Origin: an uncultured Verrucomicrobiota bacterium | Lineage (GTDB): Bacteria > Verrucomicrobiota > Kiritimatiellia > CAIVKH01 | Length of the DNA: 64,000 nucleotides | Assembly: GCA_964503335.1 (NCBI GenBank) | Contig: CAZCZZ010000003.1 | Location: forward strand, 41,384-105,383 | Direction: 5' to 3' | Part shown: in pieces, positions 22,544 to 63,690 of the stretch | Layout: every line of letters begins with the position of its first letter | Position numbering within the stretch: the first letter of the stretch is position 1 | Notes under the pieces: generated by a model | Database searches by the model: none | The model's input: only the letters and a program-made list of their open reading frames with translations | Told to the model about the DNA's origin: nothing | Translations under genes and position numbers: made by a program

Positions 22544-22612
22544 TCTCACTCTTGCTGACGGTAGAGTCCGCAAGCTACCTTGTCACGAGTGAACCCGACC
22601 GCTTCCCATTCG

Positions 22613-23416
22613 ATGTTCCGAGAGCATGTCGTGCGTGCCCTGCGCGCCACGGGACTGCTGCAGCTTTACGACACCGCAAAGTTCGGCGCCTGCACGCTGT
22701 CGGCGCAAAATGCCAACCGTGCATTCATCGCGGAGCATCCCACCCTGGCCCTTCCGCCTCTGTCTCTTATGTATGACGCCTACGGCCACGTACAGTATTC
22801 GGTCTATCACGAAGGCGGCCAAGCCCACGCGGCATACATCCACGGGCTTGCAACGAAGGTCCTCGGGCAGCCCCCCACGAGCATCCTGGAGTGGGGCTGC
22901 GGACCGGCCCGCGTGATCCGTCACATGCCGCTTTCGCCCGGACACCGCGTCATCGGCACGGACTACAATCCCGACACGATCGCGTGGTGCCGAAAGGCCG
23001 TGCCCGGGATTGAGTTCATCGAGAATGGCCTTGAGCCCCCGCTCGCCATCGAAAGCGGAAGCGTCGCACTGGTCTACGCGCTATCCGTCTTCACGCATCT
23101 TTCCGAGGCGATGCACAAGGCATGGCGCGACGAATTATTCCGCGTCCTGCGTCCCGGCGGCATCCTCATCGCCACGTTGCACGGCGACTTCTACCGCGAA
23201 CGGCATCTACTGGATGACGAACGCACGACCTATGACGCCGGACGCCTTGTCGTCCGCGGCGGCGTCCGCGAAGGCCGCAAATGGTTCGCCGCCTTCCACA
23301 GCCCGAAATACGTGCGCGAATCCTTCGCCGGCCCCTTCGAAGTTATCGAACACCTCCCCAGCCCCCTCCCCAACAGCATCGAACAGGACATCTGGGTCCT
23401 CCGCCGCCCTGCATGA
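22613..23416 (+). CDS. Class I SAM-dependent methyltransferase.
   Basis: ILEWGCGPARV glycine-rich SAM-binding motif and VLRPGGILI. The ORF track start at 22580 is a TTG. Confidence 0.7.
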   Translation: MFREHVVRALRATGLLQLYDTAKFGACTLSAQNANRAFIAEHPTLALPPLSLMYDAYGHVQYSVYHEGGQAHAAYIHGLATKVLGQPPTSILEWGCGPARVIRHMPLSPGHRVIGTDYNPDTIAWCRKAVPGIEFIENGLEPPLAIESGSVALVYALSVFTHLSEAMHKAWRDELFRVLRPGGILIATLHGDFYRERHLLDDERTTYDAGRLVVRGGVREGRKWFAAFHSPKYVRESFAGPFEVIEHLPSPLPNSIEQDIWVLRRPA

Positions 23417-23691
23417 TCCTCGTCAAATTCTCAATCGTAATCGTAATCTCAATCATCCGCTCGTCATTATCCGTAGTCCTCTTTCCTATCTTTGGAACGT
23501 CGACCAGCGCCCTCCTGCCCTGTAGTCCGCCCCCGGCGTCAAGCCTTCCAACACGATCCCCCCTGTATCATTCACCGCAGGCTGCCACGTGAGAGTCGCT
23601 TGCCGCGCCTCACCGCGGTCGCGCAATGATGATGCGACACTGCCGCATCAAACGGGGCGTCACCACGTTCGAGCTGGCGCGCTGCAGCCGG

Positions 23692-25155
23692 TCATGCACC
23701 GGGCGCGTGGAACAAACCATCGGGATCATATTTCTGTCGCAGTTTCCCAAGCTGCTCCCAACTGGTATCGCTGAAGGAACGGCGCGTGCGCGACGCGTCG
23801 GCGTCAAGGTCTGCTTCTCCGACATAGTGTCCGATGGTCGCTCCCGCAAAGGCCGCGCTGGTCTTGCGAAGCCAGTCCAGGTTCGCGCCATCCGCCGTCT
23901 CGTCGTCCCAGATCGCATACGTATTAAGATAGACCGGGCCGACTACGGAGAACGCACAGTTCGGAAGAGGTGGCGCATCGGGAGGAGGCGGCGGCATGAC
24001 CACGCCAATCATGAGCGCTTTGCTCGACGGCGATTGCCGGTACTGCCCGGCGGCCGTCTTGAACAACTCGTCGGGATTGCCAGCCAGCCACAGCGTGTCC
24101 GATGCATAGCGCAGGCCCGGTTTGAAACTGCTGTCGATCAGGTCAAAGAGCGTGTCAAGGGGCGTGGCCTCATTCATCTTCTTTTGGAGAATTCCCTCCA
24201 CGGGACACGTAGCGAAAGCCCTGAGAGCTTCGACCGCTTCATCATGCGTCGTCGAAAAGGCCGTGGCCATAACCACGCACACCTGCGCGCCCTCCGGCCC
24301 GGCGGCAAAAGTCATGGTTGCCTCGACATTCGTGCGCAATGTCGCGACGGCGCCTGCCATCCAGCGCACAATTTCCTCCGTCTTTTCGAGCGGATAAACG
24401 AGCGTGGTCGTCTCGATCGCAGCCGGCAAATCGTATGCACGGAGGTGGTACGCGACCACAACGCCAAAGAAGCCGGGCCCGCCGCCACGCGCAGCCCAGA
24501 AGAGGTCTGCATTCTCCCGTTCGTCGGCATGGAGCAGTTGACCGTCGGCCGTCACGATATCCACTGCAGTCACGTTCCAGCAGGCCACGCCCCAAGCGCC
24601 GGCATTCCAGCCGAACCCACCCCCGAGGAGATAGCCCCCGATGGTCACCGTCGGGCAATGGCCGCATGGGAAAGCGAGCCCCTGCTCCGCCAGTTGTGCA
24701 GCCAGCTCTCGGTTCTGGATACCTGGCCCTGCGACAACGGACTTGACCGCGCTATCGATCTTCACGTCGCGCAATGCGCCTACGTCGATCAGCATGCCGC
24801 CGTTGCGCACGGCCGTGCCGCTCATGTGGTGCCCGCCGCTGCGCACCGACACCCTCATCCCCTCCTTGCGTGCATAGTCGACTGCGGCCCGCACGTCATC
24901 AACCGAACCCGCCTGCACAATGACGTCCGGGACACGCTTTGGCTTGCGCCCGTTCCACAAGAGTCGATCCAGCGCGGAGCCGAAGCGCGGGTTGTCTGGC
25001 AGGATCAGCTTTCCATCGAGACCACCGGCAAGCTCCGCAGCTTCCGCGCGCCCGTTCATCCTTGGCGCATTGGGAATGACCGCTGCGATGGCACCGAGCA
25101 AACGCGCCAGTGCTTCGCGGCGGGATAGAAGTGAAGTCCTGAATTCATGCAACAT
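23692..25155 (-). CDS. FAD-linked oxidase (PCMH-type FAD-binding, BBE/VAO-like) with TAT signal.
   Basis: SRREALARLLGAIA TAT motif. FAD-binding motifs include RSGGHH, GHCPTVTIGGYLLGGGFGW and ARGGGPGFFGVV. Confidence 0.75.
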   Translation of the reverse strand: MLHEFRTSLLSRREALARLLGAIAAVIPNAPRMNGRAEAAELAGGLDGKLILPDNPRFGSALDRLLWNGRKPKRVPDVIVQAGSVDDVRAAVDYARKEGMRVSVRSGGHHMSGTAVRNGGMLIDVGALRDVKIDSAVKSVVAGPGIQNRELAAQLAEQGLAFPCGHCPTVTIGGYLLGGGFGWNAGAWGVACWNVTAVDIVTADGQLLHADERENADLFWAARGGGPGFFGVVVAYHLRAYDLPAAIETTTLVYPLEKTEEIVRWMAGAVATLRTNVEATMTFAAGPEGAQVCVVMATAFSTTHDEAVEALRAFATCPVEGILQKKMNEATPLDTLFDLIDSSFKPGLRYASDTLWLAGNPDELFKTAAGQYRQSPSSKALMIGVVMPPPPPDAPPLPNCAFSVVGPVYLNTYAIWDDETADGANLDWLRKTSAAFAGATIGHYVGEADLDADASRTRRSFSDTSWEQLGKLRQKYDPDGLFHAPGA

Positions 25156-25379
25156 GCCAGCTTCCTTTCTCCAGTTTGCCCACGAGCCTCTTGAAGCGGT
25201 GAAGGACGAAAGCCGTGAACCGCCACCGCGGACTTTAGCAATCCGACGAACCAGAATTCAACGGCGATGAGGATGTCGGGGTCCGACCCACGCCCGTCAA
25301 GATCCCCGACAGGTCATGCGGCGTATGTCGTACTTCAAGACCTGACACCCTTCATGGCGCAGCGCGTTGTTGAAACGCT

Positions 25380-25796
25380 TCAGGTCCTTTTCTTCCTCCG
25401 AGCAAGCAAGAGTTGTTCTGCGAGATCGGTGATGAACCACTCCTCCACGATCAGGTTGTCTTTGAATCTACTCGTAATCATCTCCCGCCACACGACTCGG
25501 CGATTCGAAGGCGGGAACCCCTTGAACGGGCCACGGTGCGTGGCCCGGATCGTTCTCTGCCAGGCCACTCGGTCACCCAGTTCCACCAGAATGTCGAAGG
25601 TCATCGTGATGTTTGAGAAGGCGTTGTGGTACAGGGTGACCACCTGCCGAATCAACTCGTGTCCGCCCGACAAATCCTTTCCCGTCACATGCGCCACGTA
25701 TTCAGGGGAGAAGTAGTTCGGAATGGAGCCGGCCTCGCCACGCTCAAGCAGCGCCCTGCTCGCCCTCCTTATCCGCGAGACATTCGTGTTCTTCAT
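25380..25796 (-). CDS. SnoaL-like / predicted ester-cyclase family protein.
   Basis: 138 aa. TMTFDILVELGDRVAWQRTIRATHRGPFKGFPPSNRRVVW...IVEEWFITDL resembles NTF2-fold SnoaL-like cyclases. Confidence 0.5.
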   Translation of the reverse strand: MKNTNVSRIRRASRALLERGEAGSIPNYFSPEYVAHVTGKDLSGGHELIRQVVTLYHNAFSNITMTFDILVELGDRVAWQRTIRATHRGPFKGFPPSNRRVVWREMITSRFKDNLIVEEWFITDLAEQLLLARRKKRT

Positions 25797-25838
25797 GACA
25801 GGTGCTTCCCGACAGGTCGTTCGCCGTAGTTCATTGCA

Positions 25839-26084
25839 TCATCGGATTCGCAGCATGACGACCACCAACATCACAGCCGTTATGAGGTAAATGAACCCGA
25901 AGGCTCGAATGTAGTTGGGTGTCCATTTCTCCGTGTACCATTCGCGCGTGGGCTGCTCGTATTCCCAGTACCTTATCCACCACTCCATCAGCATGCGGAT
26001 CCGTAGAGGGAACAAGATCATCGCGACGGCTGAGCAGGCCAGAAGGATCGACAGAATCAAAATCGCTTGAGTGCTCATATGCAT
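25839..26084 (-). CDS. Small hypothetical two-TM membrane protein.
   Basis: Two hydrophobic helices. No family recognised. Start ambiguous (GTG or ATG). Confidence 0.3.
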   Translation of the reverse strand: MHMSTQAILILSILLACSAVAMILFPLRIRMLMEWWIRYWEYEQPTREWYTEKWTPNYIRAFGFIYLITAVMLVVVMLRIR

Positions 26085-26138
26085 CACCTCGCGGTCGAAC
26101 GTTCACGCTGTGGATGCGAGGTCCGCCGCGGACCGAAG

Positions 26139-26504
26139 CTATCCACCGGCGTGTGGTTGGCCATCCCCTGCCTTGTTTCCCAGAGTTCCCCAACCGTCCG
26201 AATAGCCTCCGAATGGTTTTGCCATCTCGTCGAGGTCATCTTGTGCCAAGATAATTGCCTCATACGCGGGGACCATTTGTTTCGAACAGTAGCATGTCCA
26301 GGTTTGCGATTCAGAGTCGCGTTCGACTTTGGGTTCGAATCCGAGTGTCCTAACCCGTTCAGCGAATTGTCGACCTGTCCTTTCATCTGGCACAGCAACC
26401 ATGAAGTCGACCAGCATCGGTTTGGTCATGTCGGACCCGTCACCCGCCACACGTCTGAGTGCATCTCCGTCCGCATTCTCAGGATAAGACATCATCGTAT
26501 CCAT
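26139..26504 (-). CDS. Hypothetical protein, RraB-like (regulator of ribonuclease activity B / DUF695-like).
   Basis: ~120 aa acidic protein with VDFMVAVPDERTGRQFAERVRTLGFEP pattern. Family call is tentative. Confidence 0.35.
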   Translation of the reverse strand: MDTMMSYPENADGDALRRVAGDGSDMTKPMLVDFMVAVPDERTGRQFAERVRTLGFEPKVERDSESQTWTCYCSKQMVPAYEAIILAQDDLDEMAKPFGGYSDGWGTLGNKAGDGQPHAGG

Positions 26505-26824
26505 TTCGGCCAACGTCTAATCTACCGCATGACACTTTTGCTGGCGACGCGCCTTGATTTGTCGAAAGTGAGCAAAAATTCGTCCGGTTCGTGGGCCCAA
26601 GCCTAGCAGGGCGATGCCTTTGGGTAAAGTGACCAGCGGGATGGATTAGCGTCGTGAGTTTCCGTGCGCGTGCTTGACCCACAGTTCCGTTCTGTGCGGT
26701 ATATCATGGGTCTTCGATTCAACTTTGCCTCCCAGATGCACAAGAAGATTGCGAAGCGGGTGGCGGACGATTGATGCGAACGGGTCCGGGGTCGGCGACC
26801 CCGGCCACAGACGAGGGCCAGGAG

Positions 26825-26875
26825 TTTCCAATCCTTGGAAAGGTGCGCGATGAGGGCTTCCAAGGATTGGAAAGG
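26825..26875. promoter_or_regulatory. Pair of 15-bp palindromic sites TTCCAA-N3-TTGGAA (TTCCAATCCTTGGAA and TTCCAAGGATTGGAA), centres 32 bp apart.
   Basis: Read directly from the sequence. The identical motif pair with the same 32-bp spacing recurs at 63640-63690. Confidence 0.6.
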
Positions 26876-26920
26876 ACGGTCGGAGTATCCGTTGCGGAAG
26901 GTTTCCTCCTCGCTGTTTTG

Positions 26921-27120
26921 TGTCATCTCACGGCTGTTCTGACCGGGGAGTCTGCTGTTCTGCGCGGGAACAGCCTGCTCCGGGCAAGAACAGTGCTGTT
27001 CCGGGACAGATCAGCGCTGTTCCGTGTCAGGACACGCTGCTTTTCGACAGAACAGCGTTGTTCCGGGTCGGAACAGCGCTGTTCCTGCTCATCGCAGCGA
27101 GTACTTTTGCAAGAACAGCG
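26921..27120. repeat. Array of about 7 imperfect copies of the palindrome GAACAG-N2-CTGTTC(CGGG) with 21-22 bp periodicity.
   Basis: Copies include agaacagtgctgttccggg, acagaacagcgttgttccggg, tcggaacagcgctgttcctg (perfect palindrome) and agaacagcgagctcccg. The array is non-coding. Confidence 0.6.
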
Positions 27121-27266
27121 AGCTCCCGACACACCGCAGCGTGTTCCCGGGTCACCGCGGTGAGGCATTTCAGAGCGTCGCTCGATGTTCTATCGAGAGC
27201 ACGAGATCACCCCACGGGGCATTTGACCGTGGGGCTGATCGCGCTATTGTTTGAGCCGGTTACTGT

Positions 27267-28232
27267 ATGACGGAAAAGACACTTCATTTCGACAATCCGC
27301 GCGAGGCGCAGGATATCTCCGGCAAGCGCGGCGATCTGCTTCCCCGCATTGAAAAGGCTTTCGGCATCCACATCACAGCCCGCGACACGTGGGTGCGCCT
27401 GGAAGGCGAGGCTGAGCCTGTGGAGAAGGCAAACCGGTTCTTCGACCTGCTCCGGCTGGCCCGAAACCAAGGCGTGGTGCTGCGCGAGCATGGGGTGCTT
27501 TTTGCACTGAGGGCGTTTCAGGATGGACGCGAGGACGCGCTCGAACGCCTGTATGCGGACCGGATTGAGGTGGGACAAGGCAAGCCGCCGATTTTCGCCC
27601 GTACCTTCGGCCAGCTCCTCTACCTCGAATCGATCCGGCAAAAGGATTTCGTTTTCGGCATCGGCCCGGCCGGCACCGGCAAGACCTACCTCGCCATGGC
27701 GATGGCGGTCGCTCACCTTCTCCGCGGCGACGTCAGTCGCATCATCCTGACCCGGCCGGCCGTCGAAGCCGGCGAAAAACTCGGCTACCTCCCCGGCGAC
27801 TTCCAGGACAAGGTGCTGCCTTACCTGCGTCCGCTCTACGACGCGATGTACGACATGATGGGACCCGACGACATCGAGCGTCACATGAGCCGTGGCGTCA
27901 TCGAGGTGGCCCCCCTCGCCTACATGCGCGGACGCACGCTGAACCACGCCTTCGTCGTTCTCGACGAGGCGCAGAACACGACGCCGGAGCAGATGAAGAT
28001 GTTCCTGACGCGCATGGGATTCGATTCCAAATGCGTCATCACCGGCGACCTGACACAAGTGGATCTGCCGCCGAACAAGCTCTCCGGCCTCCTCGAAGCC
28101 AAGCGCACGCTGGGCAACATCGAAGGCATCGCGATCATTGAGATGAGCGACGCCGACGTGGTGCGTCACCCGATGGTGCAGCGCATCATCCAGGCCTATC
28201 GCGTCGGACGCGACGAAGCGCAGCGGAAATGA
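27267..28232 (+). CDS. phoH: PhoH-like ATPase.
   Basis: Walker A GPAGTGKTYLAMAMAV and conserved VLDEAQN / ITGDLTQVDLP motifs. ATGA overlap with the ybeY start. Confidence 0.85.
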   Translation: MTEKTLHFDNPREAQDISGKRGDLLPRIEKAFGIHITARDTWVRLEGEAEPVEKANRFFDLLRLARNQGVVLREHGVLFALRAFQDGREDALERLYADRIEVGQGKPPIFARTFGQLLYLESIRQKDFVFGIGPAGTGKTYLAMAMAVAHLLRGDVSRIILTRPAVEAGEKLGYLPGDFQDKVLPYLRPLYDAMYDMMGPDDIERHMSRGVIEVAPLAYMRGRTLNHAFVVLDEAQNTTPEQMKMFLTRMGFDSKCVITGDLTQVDLPPNKLSGLLEAKRTLGNIEGIAIIEMSDADVVRHPMVQRIIQAYRVGRDEAQRK

Positions 28233-28675
28233 AGATCGTCGTCCGCAACGAGCAGCGCGCCTATCGCGCATCAAGCCGGGCCCTCGCGTCGCTCGCGCGC
28301 TGGCTAACCGAACGGGCATCGCTTCAGAAGGATCGCGCCTGGTCCAGCATCACCGTCACCCTCCTCGATGACGCCGCGATGACCGCAAAGAATCGCGAAG
28401 TGTTTGAGAAGGACCACACGACCGACGTCATCACGATGACCTACGCCCCCATTCCCGGCGATCCCCGCTGGCAAGGCGAAGTCTTCGTCAACGCCGACTG
28501 TGCTGTGCGGGAAGGAAAGCGCCGCAAGGGCACGGCCCCCGAACTCGCCCTCTACATCGCCCACGGCATCGATCACCTGACGGGAGCCGATGACACAAAG
28601 CGGACCAACCGCGACCGGATGCGCCGCCGGGAAATGAAGTGGCTTCGCGAAGCGAAGGCGGAAGGGAAGATTTGA
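28229..28675 (+). CDS. ybeY: Endoribonuclease YbeY (rRNA maturation factor).
   Basis: HGIDHLTGADD zinc-binding H3xH5xH motif. 148 aa. Co-directional with phoH, as is typical. Confidence 0.85.
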   Translation: MKIVVRNEQRAYRASSRALASLARWLTERASLQKDRAWSSITVTLLDDAAMTAKNREVFEKDHTTDVITMTYAPIPGDPRWQGEVFVNADCAVREGKRRKGTAPELALYIAHGIDHLTGADDTKRTNRDRMRRREMKWLREAKAEGKI

Positions 28676-28685
28676 GAAGATGCTT

Positions 28686-28810
28686 TGCCCACGGAACACA
28701 CGGAATACACGGAAGGACGAAGAGACTCTTGGGGGGCTGAAAGCTCAGGCAATCGCAAATCTAAAATCGGAAATCGGAAAGTTCCCTCGCTGTCCGTGTG
28801 TTCCGTGGGC
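28686..28810. other. Perfect 17-bp inverted repeat (gcccacggaacacacgg ... ccgtgtgttccgtgggc) flanking a 91-bp AT-richer spacer. The left arm is a triple 9-bp tandem CACGGAANN.
   Basis: Read directly from the sequence, between the ybeY stop and the recO start. Confidence 0.6.
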
Positions 28811-28832
28811 AGAAGCTCTTCATCGCTTATCC

Positions 28833-29639
28833 ATGATTGAAAAGACAGAGGCTATTGCGGTGCGGATGGAGGCGTTTTCGGAGACGTCGCGTATTGTCAC
28901 ATGGACTACGCCGTCGCACGGGCGCATTACCACGATCATCAAGGGGGCGCAGCGGCCCAAGAGCGCGTTTCTCGGCCAGTACGATCTTTTCTACACCTGC
29001 GAGTTGCTCTATTACGTTCGCGACCGGAGCGGCCTACGCATCGCGCGCGAGTGCGCCCCGATCACGATGAGGAACCGGCTGCGCTCCGATTGGAAAGCGT
29101 GCGCCATTGCTTCCTATGCATCCGATCTCACCCAGCGCGTCATGCACGAGGACTCACCGCAGGAAGAGGTCTACACGCATCTGGCGGACACGCTCGATTT
29201 CCTCCAAGCCAATGGATCGAAGAACGGACTCCTGCCGTGGTTTGAGATCCAGTTGCTCACCCTGCTCGGTCTCGCGCCTCGCTTGAAGACGTGCCTCGGC
29301 TGCGGGAAGGACCTTTTGCCGGCCACCGGGCGCGCTCGCTTCTCGCTGTCGCGTGGAGGCACTCTCTGCTCAGCCTGCGCCGGGAACTCCACCGTGGACT
29401 CCATCTCCATCGCGCCTGATGTGCTCGCCATTCTTGCCGGCTGGCAGCGATCAAAGACGGCGCGTGCCGCGGCGACGACCGTTGTCACGCCGCGCCAGGC
29501 GGACGAAATGAATGAGATCCTCGGCGCGTTTCTCGTCTATCACCTCGATATAGTCCTGCCCGGACGGAGCGCCTGTCTCGACATCCTTCGCAGGGCCTCG
29601 GCTGGGAAAAGTCTTGAGTCACCCCAACGCGGCTCGTAG
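28833..29639 (+). CDS. recO: DNA repair protein RecO.
   Basis: N-terminal OB-fold region (MIEKTEAIAVRMEAFSETSRIV...). Zinc-finger CLGCG...CSAC. The ORF track extends upstream to 28680 through the inverted repeat. Confidence 0.75.
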   Translation: MIEKTEAIAVRMEAFSETSRIVTWTTPSHGRITTIIKGAQRPKSAFLGQYDLFYTCELLYYVRDRSGLRIARECAPITMRNRLRSDWKACAIASYASDLTQRVMHEDSPQEEVYTHLADTLDFLQANGSKNGLLPWFEIQLLTLLGLAPRLKTCLGCGKDLLPATGRARFSLSRGGTLCSACAGNSTVDSISIAPDVLAILAGWQRSKTARAAATTVVTPRQADEMNEILGAFLVYHLDIVLPGRSACLDILRRASAGKSLESPQRGS

Positions 29640-38985: not shown

Positions 38986-41900
38986 TCAGGGCTTTTTCGT
39001 GGCCCTGATTCGGAGATAGAGCTGTCTCTCTTCGCCGAACCCGTTCGTGTAGCCCATGGTCACCCCTGTGCCGGGGACATTCTGGAACGCCGGGCTGGGT
39101 GTCCACGTCGCAAGATTCGTGGAGGTCTCGGCGGAGTAGACGCTGTCTACGCCGCTCTGCCACGAGATGACCGAGCCCGACAGTTCAGAGTTCAGGGTCC
39201 CCAAGTGACGGGCACCCAAGCCGGGGCCACCGCTTGTCGTGCTCGAGAGCCCCATACTCAGGAAACTGTCCGCGCTGTTCGGATCCGTGCCTGCAAGCTC
39301 TTCGTCCCTGTTCGAGACGCTGTCCCCATCGCTATCCAGAGCACCCTCATCGACAATTTCAGCAGGCGGCGGAAGGTCGCTTGACTCCTCGCTATCAACC
39401 GCGACGCCGCCCACGCGGAGCACCACGGTCTTCGGCCCCAACGTTGTATTGAAGAAGCTTTCGCGATTCGCCTGCGCGACACCGGAGCCGCTCTCGTTGG
39501 TCGAACCAACGACTTCCCAGATAAACGCGACATCGTTCGAAAGAGGGTTTCGCACCTTCCAATAACCGTTCCACATTGCGACGAGGCGAAGGGAATTGCC
39601 CTGTCCGTAGTTGACGACTTGTTTCGCGTAGTTGCCCATGCTGTCGAAGGCCATGATCGTTAGCACGTTGTATGTGCCGCGCACGCCGGTCACGGTGTAG
39701 TGGTATGTGTTTCCGCCACTGTGCGTAGCCGCCTTGCCATTGACCGTGACGCTGACGACAGCGACGTCATCCGTGGCAATGATCGTCATTGGAATCTGAT
39801 TTCCGTTGCTAACATGGCCGTCCGGCGGTGCGATGTGCACGATCACGGGGGGTGTGGCGTCGGAAGCCGTCGGGATGTACGTGCCAGTGACGATGACGTT
39901 TGATCCTGAGCCTAGCAGGACCGCGATATCCGCTGGTTCGCTCCAGGCGGGTATGTCTGCAAATGCGACCGAGTACTCGCCTGTCGGCAAGTAGACCGTC
40001 TTTCCGCTCTCAAGCCAGTCCGTCTCTCCCGCGATGCGCCACTTCGCACCGACCTCGCGCGCTTTTGCGGGCTCGAGGTGACAGGTCACGCTGGCCTTCG
40101 AAATAGGAATGGCATTTGTTTGCAGCTCGAAGCAGCCCATATCGACGAGGCTGTCAACGATCCGCGAGTTCCCGTCAAGATCGGTGTCCGTCGCCATCCA
40201 CTCCTGATTCGTTCCAGCGTTCGCGCACGTGGAACCCGGCTGCAGGTGATAGTCGGCGCCGCCCACGAACGAAGGATCATTCGTCAGATTCCCGTCGAGC
40301 CAATGGACAGGGCCTAGACCGGAAGTCAGAATTCCATTCGTACCACCTTTGACATCCGAGTATGAAACGGTCAGCGCCATGCCAAACCAACTCGTGTTGA
40401 AGGCCACCTCTTCGCTTCCATTGCCCCAGACGATCGAGTTCAGCAACTTCGGGTGACTGCTATAGGAGACGGCAAGACCCGCGCCCTTTGTTGCAGGCGC
40501 GATATTCCCGACGATCGTTACACTCTCAAGCAATGGACTTGAGGCATCGAAGAAGAGGCCGCCACCCTCGCCCGATGTCTCATTCGCCCTGATGAGCGAG
40601 TTCCGGATACTTGCGTCGCTGTGATAAAGAAGCAGTCCGCCTCCGCCGTCGGGGCCGTTATTCTCTTCAACGCGGATGTTGGCGATTTCAGGTGCCCCAT
40701 AAGACACGCGAATTCCTCCGCCATTCGCTGCGAGATTGCCGCGGACAGACACATTGCGCAGGGTCGGCGAGGAATGAGCCATATAGATTCCTCCGCCCTC
40801 CTGATCGGCGCGGTTGCCTGCGATCACGAGATCCTGCAAGCGCGGTTCAGCCGAGAAGCACCCGATACCGCCGCCGTGCCCGCCAGGCGCGGCGCCTTGC
40901 GCATAACCGTTCGTAATCGTAAAGCCAGCAAGCAGGGTATCGGGGCCCTCGCCGCCCGAGAAAGTCACCACACGGCCCAGATCACCGCCGTCGATGATCG
41001 TCTGGGAGACGTGTGACGCGTCCCCGTCAAGAGCAAGACGCGAAGCCAAACTGATCGTCTTGCCCAGGAAGTTGATGCGTTCGGCATAAATCCCATCGTC
41101 GACATATATGCTGTCGCCACTCGAACTGATCGCTATTGCATCCTGGATGTTAAGGGCAGCCGTGGCCCAGTTGGTATAGGGCGGGACTGCTGTTCCCGTC
41201 TTGGCCACATAGCGAACCGTGGGAACGGACGGAGGTTGAACCGTGACCAGGGTTATCGTGTCGGACCAAGCCGACAATGCCGCGGCATTTGTCACGCAAC
41301 GCGCCTGTGCGCTAATCGCAAAGATTCCAGGCTCCGTCCAAGTGTTTGAGCGAATGGCGCTGCCCCAATCCGACAGCGAACCATCGCCCCAGTCGAAACG
41401 GTACTCGACATCACACCCATCACTGCTCGTCGCGCCGCTTGATGCAAAGGCGAGGGTTTGATACACCAGTCCCGTGGCGGGACCGGATGGGACCTGCGGA
41501 GGGGTTATCGTGACCGGATATCCGGCAAACTCGTAGGCCCCCATGTCCACGATTCCATTGAGAATGCGGCTATTCCCGTCGAGGTCGGTGGGCTCCGTCG
41601 CCAGCCCGTTGTTTCCTGCGTTAATGCATGGAGAGCCTCCCGCCAGCCTGTACTGCGAGTCACCAAACAGGGGATCTGTGGAGATGTTGCCGACGCCGGC
41701 AGGAAGAGGTGTCGTATCGCAATACGTATAGTTGCCACCGCTCCAATTCCCTCCGTTGTTGCCGAAGATGATCGAGTTGCGAACCGACGCACCGTTGATC
41801 ACGTAACCCAGTCCCCCATAGACGGGCGCACTGTTTCCCGCGATCGTGCAGTTCTCGATAAACGCTCCCTGACTGCCCCAGTCTACAAATACGCCACCCG

Positions 41901-44900
41901 TATTCTGCGATCCGGTATTGTCGGCAATCAGACAGTTCTGCAGTCGGCCCGAGTGGTAGATATGCACCCCACCTGCGTTCGGCGAGGTGTTCCCCACAAT
42001 CCGACTGTTCCGAACCGCGCTGGCACCTGCATCCGTGAACCGCACACCGCCGCCACCCGCGCTCGCATAGTTGCTCTCAATCGCGGAGTTAAAGGTGTAG
42101 CCGCTGTACAGAATGTAGATGCCACCGCCTTCATAGGCGCTGTTGTTCTTCACTACGCAGTTGCTGATCGATGCGCCACCCGTCAGGTAAACGCCGCCGC
42201 CGTTGCGCTCATAGGGGAACGTACCGCTGAGGAACGTGCCACCGCCTGCGATCGTAAAGCCTTCGAGCCTTGCCCCACCCGCAAGGTAGACGCCGCGCAC
42301 AGCCGATGCGCCCTCGGGCCCCTGCCCCTCGATGACTGTCGAGGCTGGCCCATTGACACTGCGAATAGAAATTGAATTCGTGGCAACGACTCTGTTGGGC
42401 AACCCATAACCGGGCGTCAGCGCCGCACCCACTGAATAGACGCCATCCGTTACCACGACCGCGTCCCCGCTGATGGACACATTGATGGCAGCCTGGATGT
42501 TCGTCGCCGCCGTGGCCCAGTTGGTGTACGGAGGCACAGACGACCCTGTGAGTGACACATAGTGTGTCTGGATCACCGGTGGCGGAGACGTAACCGTTAC
42601 CAAACGATTGTCCGACCACGATGACATCGCGAAGACATTTGTGACGCAGCGGGCCTGAGCGCGCACAGAATAGCTCCCGGAGCTCAACCACGCATGCGAG
42701 TTGGTGGAGGAACCCCACGACGAATAGCCCCCATCACCCCAATCGAATCGGTACTCCACAGCGCTGCCGTCACTGGCTGACGATCCGCCTGACGAGTACT
42801 CTTCAATGGCAAACACGAGACTGGTTGTAGCACCCGATGGAACAGCCGGCGTACTCACCGTGGGACCGCCTCCCCCGACTTCGTATGCACCCATGTCCAC
42901 AACGCCGGATACGATTCTGCTGTTTCCATCGAGATCGGCATCACCGATCACATAGCTGTTCTGACCGGCATTGGCGCACGGCGAAAGCGCCGATATCCGG
43001 TATGCGCCATCGGCAAAGAGCGGGTCACCGGAAATGTTGCCTGCGCCTGACGGGAGCGGTGTCGTGTCGCTGTAGGAAAATGAACCAGCACTCCAATTCC
43101 CGCCGGAGTTCCCATAGATGATCGAATTGCGAACCGTCGGACCATTGACCACGTGGCCAATGCCGCCGTAGACCGGCGCGCTGTTTCCAGCAATAGTGCA
43201 GTTCTCGATAAACGCACCCTGGCTGCCCCAGTCGACGAAAACGCCACCCGTATTCTGTGATCCGACATTGTCGGCAATCAGACAGTTCTGCAGTCGGCCC
43301 GAGTGGTAGATATGCACCCCACCTGCGTTCGGCGAGGTGTTCCCCACAATCCGACTGTTCCGAACCGCGCTGGCACCTGCATCCGTGAACCGCACACCGC
43401 CGCCACCCGCGCTCGCATAGTTGCTCTCAATCGCGGAGTTAAAGGTGTAGCCGCTGTACAGAATGTAGATGCCACCGCCTTCATAGGCGCTGTTGTTCTT
43501 CACTACGCAGTTGCTGATCGATGCGCCACCCGTCAGGTAAACGCCGCCGCCGTTGCGCTCATAGGGGAACGTACCGCTGAGGAACGTGCCACCGCCCGCG
43601 ATCGTAAAGCCTTCGAGCCTTGCCCCACCCGCAAGATAGACACCGCGCACCGCCGACGAGCCTTCGGGCCCCTGCCCCTCAATCACAGTCGACGCCGGGC
43701 CGTTTACGCTTCGAATCACGACACCGTTGGTCGCGCGTACGCGGTTCGGCAGCGTGTAGCCGGGCGTTACGGACATGCCGACATTGTAAACACCATCAGT
43801 AACAATTACGGACTCACCAGGATTTGCTGCATTGACCGCAGCCTGGATATTCGTCGCCGCAGTAACCCAATTTGTGAAGGGATAGGCATGAGCACCCGAC
43901 AGTGATACGTAGCGATCCCCAGATACGGGAGGAAGGCTCGTGATCGACACCGTCAAGGCAGCAGACCAGCTCGAAACCGCGGCTAGATTCGTGATGCACC
44001 GAGCCTGGGCCTTGACTACGTACGACCCCGCTTCGGTCCATGCATGTGAATCTGTGCCGGAACCCCACGTCGAGTAGCTGCCATCGCCCCAGTCAAAGCG
44101 GTATTCCGGAGCACCACCATCCGAGCAGATCGACCCGCCCGTCGCGAACGACAGCACCGACCCCACCAACCCCGTGACAGGTCCCGAGGGCGAATCCGGC
44201 GCACTCACTGTAACACTGCCGCTAGCCGCAAACTCATAGGCCCCGATGTCCACGGTATCATAGAGGATGCGATCGTTACCATCCAGGTCGGCCGTTCCCA
44301 CTGCCAGGCCGTTGGAGCCTGCGTTCACACAGGGAGAGCTCGCACCGATACGGTAGTCTGCGTCGGCAAAAAGTGGATCATTGGTCGAATTTCCCGCTCC
44401 AGTCGGCTCTGGTGTGGTTACACAGTACAAGAAGGAACCTGCGCTCCAGTTTCCGCTCGAGTTGCCAAAGATTATCGAGTTGCGAACCGTCGGACCGTTG
44501 ATCACGTGGCCAATGCCGCCGTTGATCGGCGAGCTGTTTCCCGCAATTGTGCAGTTCTCGATGAATGCACCCTGGCTGCCCCAGTCGATGAAAACGCCAC
44601 CCGTATCCTGTGATCCGACATTGTCGGCAATCAGGCAGTTCTGGAGTCGCCCTGAATGATAGATATGCACACCACCAGCGTTGGGGGAAGTGTTCCTGAT
44701 GATACGACTGTTGCGAACCGCGCTGTTCCCCGCATCCGAGAAGCGAACTCCGCCACCGCCAGCCGTAGCATGGTTGCTCTGGATCAGGCAGTTGTCGGCG
44801 TAACCGCTAGTGAGAATATACAATCCCCCGCCCTCCAGCCCCGTATTGCTCTCCAGAACGCAGTTGCTGATCGATGCGCCACCCGTCAGGTAAACGCCGC

Positions 44901-45939
44901 CGCCGTTGCGATCATGCGGGAAGGTTCCACCCGTCATCGTGGCGCCATCGGAAACTGTGAAGCCTTCCAGCCGCGCTGCACCGGTCAGATACACGCCCCG
45001 AACGCTGCCAAGACCATCGATGGTCGTCACGGCTGGACCGTTCACACTTCGAATCACAACCGCATTGCTGGCCACAACCCGGTTCGACAACGCATAGCCA
45101 GGCGTCAGCTTCGTGCCCGCGCTGTAAACACCATCGGTCACGATCACCGTATCGCCAGCCGCTGCCGCATCAACCGCATCTTGTATCCTCAATGCCGCCA
45201 TCGCCCAGTTCGTGTAGGGAGGAACATTGCCGCCCGTGGGTGATACGTAGCGAGAACTTCCATCCGTATAGCTGGCAAGGGAAAACACCTCATTCGAAGA
45301 CAACGCACGATTGTATACCCGGACATCGTCGAGCCTGATTTTCGTAGGATCTCCCAATGTCCTTGAATTAGATAAAACCATTCTGACTGGCGATATCAAT
45401 GGCCAGCTCATTGTTGCTGTTGATACCGCAACTCCATCCGCGTACGTTTTGGTGCTACTATTCGAGATGACCGCAACTACATGTCGCCAACGTCCGATCA
45501 GATTCGAAACGCTGCTCATGATCTGATTGGAATTCACAGGACTACCGCAGCTGTGAAAATAGATATTCGAGTAAACTTGCGCCATTTGCGGGCCACCGCA
45601 AGTTGTACCAATGGACAACTCCCCAATTGCTGCACCTACGTCATATCGCTCCAAGTACATCCAGAAAGCGAGCGTGTACATTTGGGCGCTATTCACGGGT
45701 AAGTTGCTCACAACAAGCGCGCCACCGTCAAATGCATATGCCGATACCGCATCGCCGAACCTGTTAGACGTAGGAGAGTAGACCCCAGCAAGGACACCAT
45801 TTAAGGCATTTCCGCTGACATCGTTGGCATTGCCATCAAGTGGGTAGCTTGCGACAAGGCCGTCATTCAATTCTCCTCGCGCATTGAACAGCCCTGTTGC
45901 GGCGATACAGAACATGAAAACCGATGTCATCTTCTTCAT
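38986..45939 (-). CDS. Giant secreted multidomain protein (2317 aa). Signal peptide, LamG/ConA-like lectin domain, then 4 tandem modules, then Ig-like and calcium-binding-like C-terminal regions. Each module is a right-handed parallel beta-helix (PbH1) ending in DLDGNxRI...VD(M/I)GAYEF, followed by a PKD-like domain (EYRFDWGDG).
   Basis: GGAGG Shine-Dalgarno 8 nt upstream of the ATG at 45939. LamG hallmark LDDVRVYNRALSSNEVFSL. Repeated NCxIxxN / GGGV beta-helix rungs. Module starts at RYVSPTGGNVPPYTNW, RYVSLSGAHAYPFTNW, HYVSLTGSSVPPYTNW and RYVAKTGTAVPPYTNW. C-terminal DSDGDSVSNRDEELAGTDPNSADS (thrombospondin type 3-like motif). Confidence 0.8.
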   Translation of the reverse strand: MKKMTSVFMFCIAATGLFNARGELNDGLVASYPLDGNANDVSGNALNGVLAGVYSPTSNRFGDAVSAYAFDGGALVVSNLPVNSAQMYTLAFWMYLERYDVGAAIGELSIGTTCGGPQMAQVYSNIYFHSCGSPVNSNQIMSSVSNLIGRWRHVVAVISNSSTKTYADGVAVSTATMSWPLISPVRMVLSNSRTLGDPTKIRLDDVRVYNRALSSNEVFSLASYTDGSSRYVSPTGGNVPPYTNWAMAALRIQDAVDAAAAGDTVIVTDGVYSAGTKLTPGYALSNRVVASNAVVIRSVNGPAVTTIDGLGSVRGVYLTGAARLEGFTVSDGATMTGGTFPHDRNGGGVYLTGGASISNCVLESNTGLEGGGLYILTSGYADNCLIQSNHATAGGGGVRFSDAGNSAVRNSRIIRNTSPNAGGVHIYHSGRLQNCLIADNVGSQDTGGVFIDWGSQGAFIENCTIAGNSSPINGGIGHVINGPTVRNSIIFGNSSGNWSAGSFLYCVTTPEPTGAGNSTNDPLFADADYRIGASSPCVNAGSNGLAVGTADLDGNDRILYDTVDIGAYEFAASGSVTVSAPDSPSGPVTGLVGSVLSFATGGSICSDGGAPEYRFDWGDGSYSTWGSGTDSHAWTEAGSYVVKAQARCITNLAAVSSWSAALTVSITSLPPVSGDRYVSLSGAHAYPFTNWVTAATNIQAAVNAANPGESVIVTDGVYNVGMSVTPGYTLPNRVRATNGVVIRSVNGPASTVIEGQGPEGSSAVRGVYLAGGARLEGFTIAGGGTFLSGTFPYERNGGGVYLTGGASISNCVVKNNSAYEGGGIYILYSGYTFNSAIESNYASAGGGGVRFTDAGASAVRNSRIVGNTSPNAGGVHIYHSGRLQNCLIADNVGSQNTGGVFVDWGSQGAFIENCTIAGNSAPVYGGIGHVVNGPTVRNSIIYGNSGGNWSAGSFSYSDTTPLPSGAGNISGDPLFADGAYRISALSPCANAGQNSYVIGDADLDGNSRIVSGVVDMGAYEVGGGGPTVSTPAVPSGATTSLVFAIEEYSSGGSSASDGSAVEYRFDWGDGGYSSWGSSTNSHAWLSSGSYSVRAQARCVTNVFAMSSWSDNRLVTVTSPPPVIQTHYVSLTGSSVPPYTNWATAATNIQAAINVSISGDAVVVTDGVYSVGAALTPGYGLPNRVVATNSISIRSVNGPASTVIEGQGPEGASAVRGVYLAGGARLEGFTIAGGGTFLSGTFPYERNGGGVYLTGGASISNCVVKNNSAYEGGGIYILYSGYTFNSAIESNYASAGGGGVRFTDAGASAVRNSRIVGNTSPNAGGVHIYHSGRLQNCLIADNTGSQNTGGVFVDWGSQGAFIENCTIAGNSAPVYGGLGYVINGASVRNSIIFGNNGGNWSGGNYTYCDTTPLPAGVGNISTDPLFGDSQYRLAGGSPCINAGNNGLATEPTDLDGNSRILNGIVDMGAYEFAGYPVTITPPQVPSGPATGLVYQTLAFASSGATSSDGCDVEYRFDWGDGSLSDWGSAIRSNTWTEPGIFAISAQARCVTNAAALSAWSDTITLVTVQPPSVPTVRYVAKTGTAVPPYTNWATAALNIQDAIAISSSGDSIYVDDGIYAERINFLGKTISLASRLALDGDASHVSQTIIDGGDLGRVVTFSGGEGPDTLLAGFTITNGYAQGAAPGGHGGGIGCFSAEPRLQDLVIAGNRADQEGGGIYMAHSSPTLRNVSVRGNLAANGGGIRVSYGAPEIANIRVEENNGPDGGGGLLLYHSDASIRNSLIRANETSGEGGGLFFDASSPLLESVTIVGNIAPATKGAGLAVSYSSHPKLLNSIVWGNGSEEVAFNTSWFGMALTVSYSDVKGGTNGILTSGLGPVHWLDGNLTNDPSFVGGADYHLQPGSTCANAGTNQEWMATDTDLDGNSRIVDSLVDMGCFELQTNAIPISKASVTCHLEPAKAREVGAKWRIAGETDWLESGKTVYLPTGEYSVAFADIPAWSEPADIAVLLGSGSNVIVTGTYIPTASDATPPVIVHIAPPDGHVSNGNQIPMTIIATDDVAVVSVTVNGKAATHSGGNTYHYTVTGVRGTYNVLTIMAFDSMGNYAKQVVNYGQGNSLRLVAMWNGYWKVRNPLSNDVAFIWEVVGSTNESGSGVAQANRESFFNTTLGPKTVVLRVGGVAVDSEESSDLPPPAEIVDEGALDSDGDSVSNRDEELAGTDPNSADSFLSMGLSSTTSGGPGLGARHLGTLNSELSGSVISWQSGVDSVYSAETSTNLATWTPSPAFQNVPGTGVTMGYTNGFGEERQLYLRIRATKKP
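41921..42293. repeat. Internal direct repeat copy B (~373 bp). About 99.7% identical to 43271..43643 (period 1350 bp = 450 aa), within the giant adhesin gene.
   Basis: Identical 68-aa antisense ORFs at 41928..42134 and 43278..43484. Direct base-by-base comparison shows one mismatch in ~373 bp, with flanks ~80-85% identical. Confidence 0.85.
43271..43643. repeat. Internal direct repeat copy A, partner of 41921..42293. A third, more diverged copy lies around 44620.
   Basis: Same comparison as for copy B. Confidence 0.85.
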
Positions 45940-63639: not shown

Positions 63640-63690
63640 TCTTCCAACCATTGGAAGTCTCGCTGGGAGAAGTTCCAAGGATTGGAAATC
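63640..63690. promoter_or_regulatory. Second pair of TTCCAA-N3-TTGGAA palindromes (TTCCAACCATTGGAA and TTCCAAGGATTGGAA), centres 32 bp apart, ~130 bp upstream of the ATG at 63817.
   Basis: Read directly from the sequence. Same motif, spacing and orientation as at 26825-26875. Confidence 0.6.

What the first reader, a model, noticed from the sequence alone, without database searches (positions are those of the whole stretch)
26921..27120. 21-22 bp periodic array of about 7 GAACAG-N2-CTGTTC palindromes upstream of phoH
About 200 bp of non-coding DNA carry roughly seven imperfect copies of GAACAGCGCTGTTCCGGG, including one perfect 14-bp palindrome at about 27061-27074. They repeat with a two-helical-turn periodicity (21-22 bp), which would place all sites on one DNA face. 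The array is neither CRISPR-like (no unique spacers; the unit is only about 21 bp) nor coding. The GAAC..GTTC half-sites resemble LexA/Cheo-type SOS boxes (GAAC-N4-GTTC), but seven phased copies are atypical for LexA. A periodic palindrome array suggests iteron-like cooperative binding, a nucleoprotein filament or a strong roadblock/silencer upstream of the phoH-ybeY-recO operon. recO is a DNA-repair gene, so a DNA-damage-linked regulator is conceivable (inference).
Basis: partly seen in the sequence, partly recalled or inferred. Interest (0 to 1): 0.55.

Follow-up and report, generated by a model that had tools for sequence, protein, structure and literature searches.

The report
Strain-variable 21-bp palindrome repeat module
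The periodic palindrome array upstream of phoH is real, but it belongs to a young, lineage-specific ~380-bp repeat module that also sits next to unrelated genes, so it is not a conserved SOS/LexA or phoH control element.

Summary
The array is real and larger than reported. It has 12 units of 21 bp (two are 20 bp) at 26905-27155, with consensus GAACAGCGCTGTTCCGGGNCA. It is the strongest periodic signal in the window.

It lies 68 bp upstream of a sigma70-like phoH promoter in a probable Kiritimatiellota (PVC) genome.

- **Unit number varies.** Close strains carry 12 or 13 units.
- **Relatives lack it.** In eight of nine PhoH relatives (72-84% identity) another gene ends 0-57 bp before phoH, leaving no room for an array.
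- **It is part of a repeated module.** The array plus a REP-like double palindrome (TTCCAA-N3-TTGGAA, twice) forms a ~380-bp module. Two other contigs carry this module with a completely different right flank. There it lies ~320 bp upstream of a conserved sigma54-like promoter.
- **No selection detected.** Substitutions hit half-sites and linkers equally, and diversity is near the synonymous rate.
- **LexA spacing does not fit.** The half-site TGTTC matches the Verrucomicrobia LexA half-site, but the spacing (N7, or everted N4) fits no known LexA box.

Best reading: a decaying minisatellite made from an operator-like dyad and carried on a duplicated non-coding module. A cooperative protein-binding or enhancer role remains possible but is unproven.

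The parts
26785..27162 (.). Repeated non-coding module of ~380 bp (double palindrome plus 21-bp array). This is the unit of homology shared with contigs that have other flanks.
   Evidence: blastn of L140 and L141 against the window: 26785-27162 at 85% and 26797-27164 at 96.5%, with flanks absent from the window. Alignment A2 shows homology ending at GGTCACC. Alignment A1 shows strains diverging to the left of ~26785-26819.
26826..26872 (.). Two 15-bp palindromes TTCCAA-N3-TTGGAA (26826-26840 and 26858-26872). Together they form a perfect 16-bp inverted repeat. REP-like dispersed element.
   Evidence: the repeat finder I7/I2. A second pair at 63642-63656 and 63673-63687, 5 matches against 0.05 expected. 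Flanks of the two pairs are unrelated.
26905..27155 (+). Tandem array of 12 units (10 of 21 bp, 2 of 20 bp), consensus GAACAGCGCTGTTCCGGGNCA. The linker gives it a direction.
   Evidence: Register and per-column information content. TRF and the repeat finder give spacings of 21/41/42. 13 units in L083, L085, L086 and L140.
26988..27084 (.). Best-preserved core. Dyads are at 26988-27001, 27009-27022, 27050-27063 and 27071-27084. The unit deletions seen between strains fall here.
27223..27250 (+). sigma70-like phoH promoter, TTGACC-N16-TATTGT, 68 bp to the right of the array.
   Evidence: Promoter scan found 1 site against 0.2 expected. It is conserved in all strain contigs. Relatives use TTGACA-N17-TAGACT upstream of HIT-phoH.
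27267..28232 (+). phoH (PhoH-like ATPase), followed by ybeY at 28229-28675 and recO.
   Evidence: Pfam PF02562 at 1e-91, PF02130, RecO_N/RecO_C.
26697..26708 (-). Putative extended -10 (TGATATAC) that starts a conserved ~200-nt leader (26504-26709) for the divergent, strain-variable genes. This is inference.
   Evidence: The motif TG-N-TATAC and the leader are conserved between the window, L083 and L141, although the downstream genes differ.
26139..26513 (-). RraB-like gene, the first gene of the strain-variable region to the left of the module.
   Evidence: Pfam PF06877 at 8e-24.

Best explanation
The array is a lineage-specific 21-bp minisatellite. It arose by tandem amplification of one unit: an operator-like 14-bp dyad (GAACAG-CG-CTGTTC) plus a 7-bp directional linker. 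It now decays by point mutation and by loss or gain of whole units through recombination or slippage between similar units. With a REP-like double palindrome it forms a ~380-bp non-coding module. That module has been copied as a block to at least two places in this population: upstream of phoH, and ~320 bp upstream of a sigma54-type promoter of an unknown 141-aa gene next to fdxA. It is not an ancestral or dedicated regulator of phoH-ybeY-recO, and it is not a LexA operator of a known type. Unit changes alter the distance between the two divergent promoters in steps of two helical turns. Any present activity would most plausibly be cooperative loading of a dimeric helix-turn-helix protein on one DNA face. 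That last step is inference and is not shown.
For: Tandem structure, with degenerate edges and a better-preserved centre. Unit-number polymorphism in near-identical strains: a 13-unit allele, and two different 12-unit alleles that each lack a different unit. Absent in relatives: in 8 of 9 PhoH relatives (72-84% identity) a gene ends 0-57 bp before phoH. The same module has a different right flank in L141 (same sequencing project as L084, L086 and L087) and in L140 (a ~92% relative from another study). Homology ends at the last unit. Nucleotide diversity among 7 strains: array 0.024 (core 0.011), promoter region 0.022, phoH third codon positions 0.013. Of the 25 substitutions between the L083 and L140 arrays, my count from the unit rows printed puts about 15-16 in the 14 dyad columns (about 16.7 expected), so dyad and linker are hit about equally; several destroy half-sites. 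Array identity between L141 and L140 is 0.90, against 0.85-0.87 for flanking non-coding DNA. No further good dyads at promoters elsewhere in the 64 kb. The accompanying double palindrome is itself a dispersed element.
Against: A founder unit with 6+6 perfect dyad symmetry and a central CG looks like a real operator. The half-site TGTTC equals the Verrucomicrobia LexA half-site (PMC4951493). The geometry TGTTCC-N5-GGAACAG-NN-CTGTTCC recurs as the likely enhancer of an AcoR-like sigma54 activator in other bacteria. The array kept 12-13 units across ~8-10% divergence and is slightly better conserved than neighbouring non-coding DNA. With 12 redundant sites, weak selection per site would be invisible in these small samples. 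Some of the different left/right flank combinations could be assembly chimeras across a 380-bp repeat.
Confidence: 0.5

Rival explanations
1. The array is an active cooperative protein-binding platform or enhancer. Dimers of a helix-turn-helix protein bind the 12-13 dyads on one DNA face and act on the flanking promoters. Candidates are a sigma54 enhancer-binding protein that recognises TGTTCC-N5-GGAACA, or a LacI-like or other repressor that recognises AACAGC|GCTGTT. The module would be a portable regulatory cassette.
For: A 21-bp period is two helical turns. The dyad has typical operator geometry. In L125, L098, L100 and L129 the same 1.5-unit arrangement lies between a GAF-Sigma54_activat-HTH_8 gene and a perfect TGGCAC-N5-TTGCA promoter. 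In L140 and L141 the module lies 311-325 bp upstream of TGGCAC-N5-GTGC, inside a ~75-nt block that is 100% conserved in otherwise 85%-identical DNA. No sigma70-like promoter was found there. At both loci the array end faces a gene that is transcribed away from it.
Against: Near the window copy, sigma54-like matches are no better than background: 229 matches with 4 or fewer mismatches in the window. phoH has a sigma70-like promoter. No regulator gene was found among the ORFs scanned by Pfam or recognised among the N-termini listed; the window was not fully annotated. No excess conservation of half-sites. No single sites at other promoters in the window. Arrays of 12 operators are unprecedented for such regulators.
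Confidence: 0.28
2. The array is a relic or working cis site of a mobile element. It could be origin iterons, a centromere-like parC/parS array, or multiple transposase or recombinase binding sites at the end of an element whose cargo is the strain-variable DNA on the left.
For: The 21-bp phased repeats resemble iterons. Phage contigs L090 and L094 carry CTGTTC-N7/8-GAACAG arrays inside O-like replication-initiator genes next to AT-rich DNA. The right boundary of the module is sharp, at least two right contexts exist, and the DNA on the left is hypervariable. Diversity rises to 0.117 at 26800-26904.
Against: No rep, par, transposase or integrase gene in 22580-27266. No AT-rich unwinding region, no DnaA-box cluster and no GC-skew switch. 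No inverted copy of the terminal 20 bp in the window. No blastn match in the plasmid or phage collections. The left junctions fall at different positions (26785, 26797, 26819), which does not fit site-specific recombination.
Confidence: 0.12
3. The array is a LexA (SOS) operator array that represses phoH-ybeY-recO.
For: The TGTTC/GAACA pentamer is the monomer site of Verrucomicrobia LexA, which binds tandem sites cooperatively (PMC4951493). Kiritimatiellota belong to the same PVC superphylum. recO is a repair gene.
Against: The spacing is wrong for both described motif types: N7 instead of N4, or everted N4 which equals GAAC-N6-GTTC. Matches to TGTTC-N4-GAACA in the window are at chance level, 31 against 22.6. 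The array ends 68 bp upstream of the -35 rather than overlapping the promoter. It is absent in relatives. The same module sits next to non-repair genes.
Confidence: 0.04
4. The array acts as RNA (tandem hairpins in a 5' leader or small RNA) or encodes a heptad-repeat peptide.
For: The transcript of either strand folds strongly, with z-scores of -5.7 and -6.3. The 21-bp unit equals 7 codons, and three reading frames stay open through the array. Gene callers have called ORFs across it: P0121, P0122 and P0123.
Against: Strong folding is automatic for any palindrome array. The phoH promoter lies downstream of the array. No Rfam family matches. The two 20-bp units shift the reading frame relative to the repeat. 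The minus-strand ORF is truncated in some strains and its changes are non-synonymous. The translated ORFs have no homologues beyond the same module.
Confidence: 0.03

Closest known systems
Bacterial minisatellites/VNTRs and REP/BIME-type intergenic palindromic repeats
   Same: Head-to-tail units and unit-number polymorphism between close strains. Degenerate edges. Extragenic location. Palindromic units able to form hairpins. Association with a short dispersed palindromic element, the TTCCAA-N3-TTGGAA pairs found at two places in the window.
   Different: The units all point the same way, whereas BIMEs alternate orientation. The 14-bp dyad is not dispersed as single copies in the 64 kb. The whole 380-bp block is what recurs. 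No RAYT-type transposase is known here.
Iteron arrays of phage and plasmid origins (lambda ori within gene O; RK2, R6K, pPS10) and centromere arrays (R1/pSK41 parC, F sopC)
   Same: 17-22-bp protein-binding repeats with a 20-22-bp period, which puts all sites on one face. Phage contigs L090 and L094 even use CTGTTC-N7/8-GAACAG units inside O-like initiator genes.
   Different: No initiator or partition gene, no AT-rich unwinding element and no DnaA boxes. The array lies in a chromosome with no GC-skew switch. No sequence match in the plasmid or phage collections.
Enhancer (UAS) sites of sigma54 activators, e.g. the AcoR-like loci L125, L098, L100 and L129, and NtrC-type 17-bp dyads
   Same: The TGTTCC-N5-GGAACA 17-bp dyad followed 2 bp later by another CTGTTCC, which is the same 21-bp frame. 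The second module copy lies ~320 bp upstream of a conserved TGGCAC-N5-GTGC.
   Different: 12-13 sites instead of 2-3. No convincing sigma54 promoter at the phoH copy. No activator gene nearby.
LexA operators (Verrucomicrobia TGTTC-N4-GAACA; Firmicutes/Actinobacteria GAAC-N4-GTTC)
   Same: The same TGTTC/GAACA pentamer half-site. Tandem cooperative sites are known for LexA.
   Different: The half-site spacing or orientation does not fit either motif. The period is 21 bp against 15-16 bp. The array is not at lexA, recA or imuA. It does not overlap the promoter. It is not conserved in relatives.

Membership tests
LexA/SOS operator | Dyad with the clade's spacing: GAAC-N4-GTTC, or TGTTC-N4-GAACA (PMC4951493). 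| tested here: not met
   The array dyads are GAAC-N6-GTTC (= GAACA-N4-TGTTC) and TGTTC-N7-GAACA. The TGTTC-N4-GAACA search is at chance level, 31 against 22.6 expected.
LexA/SOS operator | Located at or overlapping promoters of core SOS genes (lexA, recA, imuA-imuB-dnaE2), and conserved across relatives. | tested here: not met
   The array ends 68 bp upstream of the phoH -35. It is absent upstream of phoH in 8 of 9 relatives. A second copy lies next to fdxA and HAD genes.
LexA/SOS operator | The same motif is present at this clade's own lexA and recA promoters. | not testable with these tools
   No lexA or recA was recognised in the 64-kb window (not fully annotated).
Iteron-type replication origin | Three or more phased direct repeats of 17-22 bp. 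| tested here: met
   12 units at 21 bp.
Iteron-type replication origin | An adjacent or enclosing initiator gene, an AT-rich unwinding element, DnaA boxes and a strand-skew switch. | tested here: not met
   The neighbouring genes are RraB-like, SnoaL-like, FAD oxidase, a methyltransferase and PhoH. The lowest GC in 40-bp windows within and next to the array is 0.50. No DnaA-box cluster. Cumulative GC skew is monotonic.
Plasmid/phage centromere (parC/parS/sopC) | A repeat array immediately upstream of, or beside, a partition NTPase plus a DNA-binding adaptor gene pair. | tested here: not met
   The downstream genes are the housekeeping pair phoH-ybeY, which relatives have without any array. 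No ParA, ParM, TubZ or adaptor gene was found near the array.
sigma54 enhancer (bEBP UAS) | Inverted-repeat sites of ~17 bp, phased on one face. | tested here: met
   TGTTCC-N5-GGAACA, for example at 27059-27075 and 26956-26972. The same geometry occurs at an AcoR-like activator locus.
sigma54 enhancer (bEBP UAS) | A GG-N10-GC (TGGCAC-N5-TTGCW) promoter about 80-400 bp downstream. | tested here: inconclusive
   Window copy: only matches with 3-4 mismatches, which occur at background frequency. L140/L141 copy: TGGCAC-N5-GTGC lies 311-325 bp downstream and is perfectly conserved.
sigma54 enhancer (bEBP UAS) | A cognate activator and rpoN are present in the genome. | not testable with these tools
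   Neither was seen among the window ORFs examined (the window was not fully annotated). The rest of the genome is not available.
Minisatellite/VNTR | Head-to-tail units, with unit-number polymorphism among close strains. | tested here: met
   12 versus 13 units, and two different single-unit deletions.
REP/BIME | A short palindromic unit dispersed in many extragenic copies; clusters with alternating orientation. | tested here: not met
   Outside the array the window holds only isolated near-matches (1-2 mismatches) to the dyad, and all of them lie inside ORFs rather than at promoters. The array units are all in direct orientation. Only the separate TTCCAA-N3-TTGGAA pair is dispersed.
CRISPR | Repeats separated by unique spacers of similar length. 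| tested here: not met
   The 14-bp dyads are separated by a conserved 7-bp linker, CGGGNCA.

The most novel reading that the evidence does not exclude
The ~380-bp module is a portable bacterial enhancer or landing pad. Its 12-13 phased TGTTCC-N5-GGAACA dyads would load multiple dimers or hexamers of one regulator, possibly a sigma54 activator. The block has been copied in front of different genes (phoH, and a sigma54-driven unknown gene), so that the duplicated cis-module rewires them to one signal. Unit number would tune the output.
Probability: 0.13. Interest if true: 0.6.

Novelty: new member of a known kind. Interest (0 to 1): 0.3.

Why it matters
If the array is only a decaying repeat, the lesson is a cautionary one. 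A striking phased palindrome array next to a repair-related operon need not be a regulator, and translated-ORF searches can expose hidden copies of non-coding repeats. If it does bind a protein, it would be an unusually large operator or enhancer array in the little-studied Kiritimatiellota. It would also be an example of a regulatory DNA block being duplicated between loci.

Tried and rejected
- **Chromosomal origin or terminus:** rejected. There is no GC-skew switch, no DnaA-box cluster and no AT-rich stretch.
- **CRISPR:** rejected, because the linker between dyads is conserved rather than unique.
- **Coding heptad repeat:** rejected.
- **Known RNA family:** none at the gathering threshold. 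At E<1 only meaningless miRNA hairpin hits appear.
- **Integron-like attI/attC reading of the variable region:** no integrase was found, no repeated attC-like modules turned up between the genes, and no attC core sites were apparent on inspection.
- **Transposon end:** no inverted copy of the terminal 20-mer in the window.
- **sigma54 promoter at the phoH copy:** candidate matches are at background frequency.
- **Plasmid and phage blastn with the module:** no match.
- **Metagenome pattern scan:** did not find this species, but gave analogues.
- **Protein search with the minus-strand ORF**, intended to count left contexts: found nothing.
- **DNA for relatives P0004, P0005 and P0010:** not retrievable. 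P0010 has a 435-bp gap before phoH that could not be inspected.

Full report
**Observation**

The sequence at 26905-27155 is a tandem array of 12 units. Ten units are 21 bp and two are 20 bp. The consensus is GAACAGCGCTGTTCCGGGNCA.

- The four central dyads are at 26988, 27009, 27050 and 27071. They are perfect or have one mismatch.
- The three left-most units keep only GCTGTTC. The right-most units keep mainly CAGCG.
- Self-identity at lag 21 is 0.51, against a window mean of 0.283 (sd 0.034). This is the strongest periodicity in the 64 kb.
- Motif counts exceed all shuffles.
- Per-column information is highest for C4 A5, G8, T10 G11 T12 T13 C14, and lowest in the linker.

The array is longer than reported, and the perfect palindrome is at 27071-27084.

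**Setting**

The best named PhoH homologues come from Kiritimatiellota and other PVC bacteria. The array lies in a ~750-bp divergent intergenic region. On the left is an RraB-like gene (26139-26513, minus strand). On the right is phoH (27267, plus strand), followed by ybeY and recO.

A sigma70-like promoter, TTGACC-N16-TATTGT, sits at 27223-27250, which is 68 bp to the right of the array. Relatives use a similar TTGACA-N17-TAGACT promoter. There is no GC-skew switch, DnaA-box cluster or AT-rich segment. No Rfam family or tRNA was found. The ORFs that run through the array are not genes.

**Close strains**

Seven metagenome contigs encode a 99%-identical PhoH, and six of them reach into the array.

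- L083, L085 and L086 have 13 units.
- The window lacks one unit relative to these. L081, L082 and L084 lack a different one. This shows in-register unit turnover.
- To the right of ~26790 the strains are nearly identical. To the left of 26785-26819 they carry unrelated DNA.
- Nucleotide diversity is 0.024 in the array (0.011 in its core) and 0.022 in the promoter segment. It is 0.013 at phoH third codon positions and 0.117 at 26800-26904.

So the array evolves at about the neutral rate.

**Relatives**

In eight of nine PhoH relatives (72-84% identity), a gene ends 0-57 bp before phoH. Usually that gene is HIT; once it is a divergent peptidase-like gene. The ninth relative has a 435-bp gap, but no DNA could be fetched for it. 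No relative shows lag-21 periodicity near phoH. The window has 4.7 kb of extra DNA (22580-27266) where relatives have HIT. The array is therefore not an ancestral phoH control region.

**A second context**

I translated the array and searched the protein collection. This found three ORFs that gene callers had placed across the same repeat. I fetched the contigs of two of them, L141 and L140.

- L141 comes from the same project as L084, L086 and L087. L140 comes from another study and is ~92% identical to L141.
- Both carry window 26785/26797-27162 at 96.5% and 85% identity.
- Homology stops at the last unit (GGTCACC). The right flank is different and is not in the window.
- That flank consists of ~320 bp of non-coding DNA, then a 100%-conserved block with TGGCAC-N5-GTGC, then a 141-aa unknown gene. 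Beyond it, on the opposite strand, are an fdxA-like ferredoxin gene and a HAD hydrolase gene.

So the array belongs to a ~380-bp module found in at least two contexts, each seen in independent assemblies. Some left/right flank combinations may be assembly chimeras across the repeat.

The left part of the module is a pair of TTCCAA-N3-TTGGAA palindromes. The same pair also occurs at 63642-63687, downstream of an unrelated gene, which fits a REP-like element.

**Selection test**

The 13-unit arrays of L083 and L140 differ at 25 of 273 positions. By my count from the unit rows printed, these are spread over dyad and linker columns in proportion to their size. Several destroy half-sites. Identity between L141 and L140 is 0.90 in the array, 0.87 in the palindrome region and 0.85 in the right non-coding flank. 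At most there is weak constraint. However, 12 redundant sites could hide selection on individual sites.

**Comparison with known systems**

- **LexA.** The Verrucomicrobia box is TGTTC-N4-GAACA, with tandem sites 1-2 bp apart. The Firmicutes box is GAAC-N4-GTTC (PMC4951493). The array shares the pentamer but has N7, or everted N4, spacing.
- **Iterons.** Phage contigs carry CTGTTC-N7/8-GAACAG arrays with ~21-bp spacing inside O-like initiator genes (L090, L094), next to AT-rich DNA in L094. The window copy has no initiator gene and no unwinding element.
- **sigma54 enhancers.** In L125, L098, L100 and L129, the arrangement TGTTCC-N5-GGAACAG-NN-CTGTTCC lies between a GAF-sigma54-activator gene and a perfect TGGCAC-N5-TTGCA promoter. 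This matches the array's frame and fits the L140/L141 locus. At phoH, though, sigma54-like matches are at background level.
- **Plasmid and phage collections.** No match.

**Verdict**

The feature is real and architecturally striking. The evidence favours a lineage-specific, decaying minisatellite built from an operator-like dyad and carried on a duplicated non-coding module (confidence about 0.5). An active cooperative binding or enhancer role is the main rival (about 0.28). A mobile-element cis site follows (about 0.12). LexA and RNA or peptide readings are unlikely.

Noticed in passing
window 28676-28839: The ybeY-recO gap holds a perfect 17-bp inverted repeat, CCCACGGAACACACGGA (28689-28705 and 28794-28810), plus two small tandem repeats (periods 9 and 7). 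recO probably starts at 28840, not 28680.
   Followed up: no
window 63642-63687 (also 26826-26872; degenerate copy at 23483-23497): A pair of TTCCAA-N3-TTGGAA palindromes recurs downstream of an unrelated gene. There are 5 matches against 0.05 expected, and the flanks are not homologous. It looks like a short REP-like dispersed element.
   Followed up: partly
window 26504-26709 (minus strand); L083 275-489; L141 104-310: A ~200-nt non-coding leader is conserved at ~72-74% upstream of different genes in different strains. It starts with TG-N-TATAC (extended -10-like) and, in the window and L083, ends with ATTARACGTTGGCCGAAA at the first ORF (the start codon ATG follows directly in the window). 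It may be a promoter plus 5' UTR or an RNA element. No Rfam hit.
   Followed up: partly
window 22580-26800: A strain-variable region replaces the HIT gene that relatives have upstream of phoH. Here it holds a methyltransferase, an FAD-binding oxidase, a SnoaL-like protein, a small membrane protein and an RraB-like protein. Other strains carry unrelated DNA, for example a lipoprotein gene in L081. DUF502, found between ybeY and recO in relatives, is also missing.
   Followed up: partly
L140 829-843; L141 1134-1148: A conserved sigma54-like promoter, TGGCAC-N5-GTGC, lies ~40 nt upstream of a 141-aa gene with no family match. It sits in a ~75-nt block that is 100% conserved between contigs which are otherwise 85% identical in non-coding DNA.
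   Followed up: partly
L090 about 2560-2700; L094 about 600-760; L093/L124; L088, L091, L092: Phage contigs carry CTGTTC-N7/8-GAACAG repeats at ~21-bp spacing. In L090 and L094 they lie inside replication-initiator (O-like) genes, and in L094 and L088/L091/L092 they are followed by AT-rich DNA. They are probably origin iterons.
   Followed up: partly
L125 2780-2905 (also L098, L100, L129): TGTTCC-N5-GGAACAG-NN-CTGTTCC lies ~100 bp upstream of a perfect TGGCAC-N5-TTGCA promoter of a zinc alcohol dehydrogenase gene. It is divergent from a GAF-sigma54-activator-HTH_8 gene and is probably that activator's enhancer.
   Followed up: partly
window 38986-45939 (minus strand): A giant 2317-aa ORF with a signal peptide. 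It contains two chance-level near-matches to the dyad, at 44715 and 45886.
   Followed up: no
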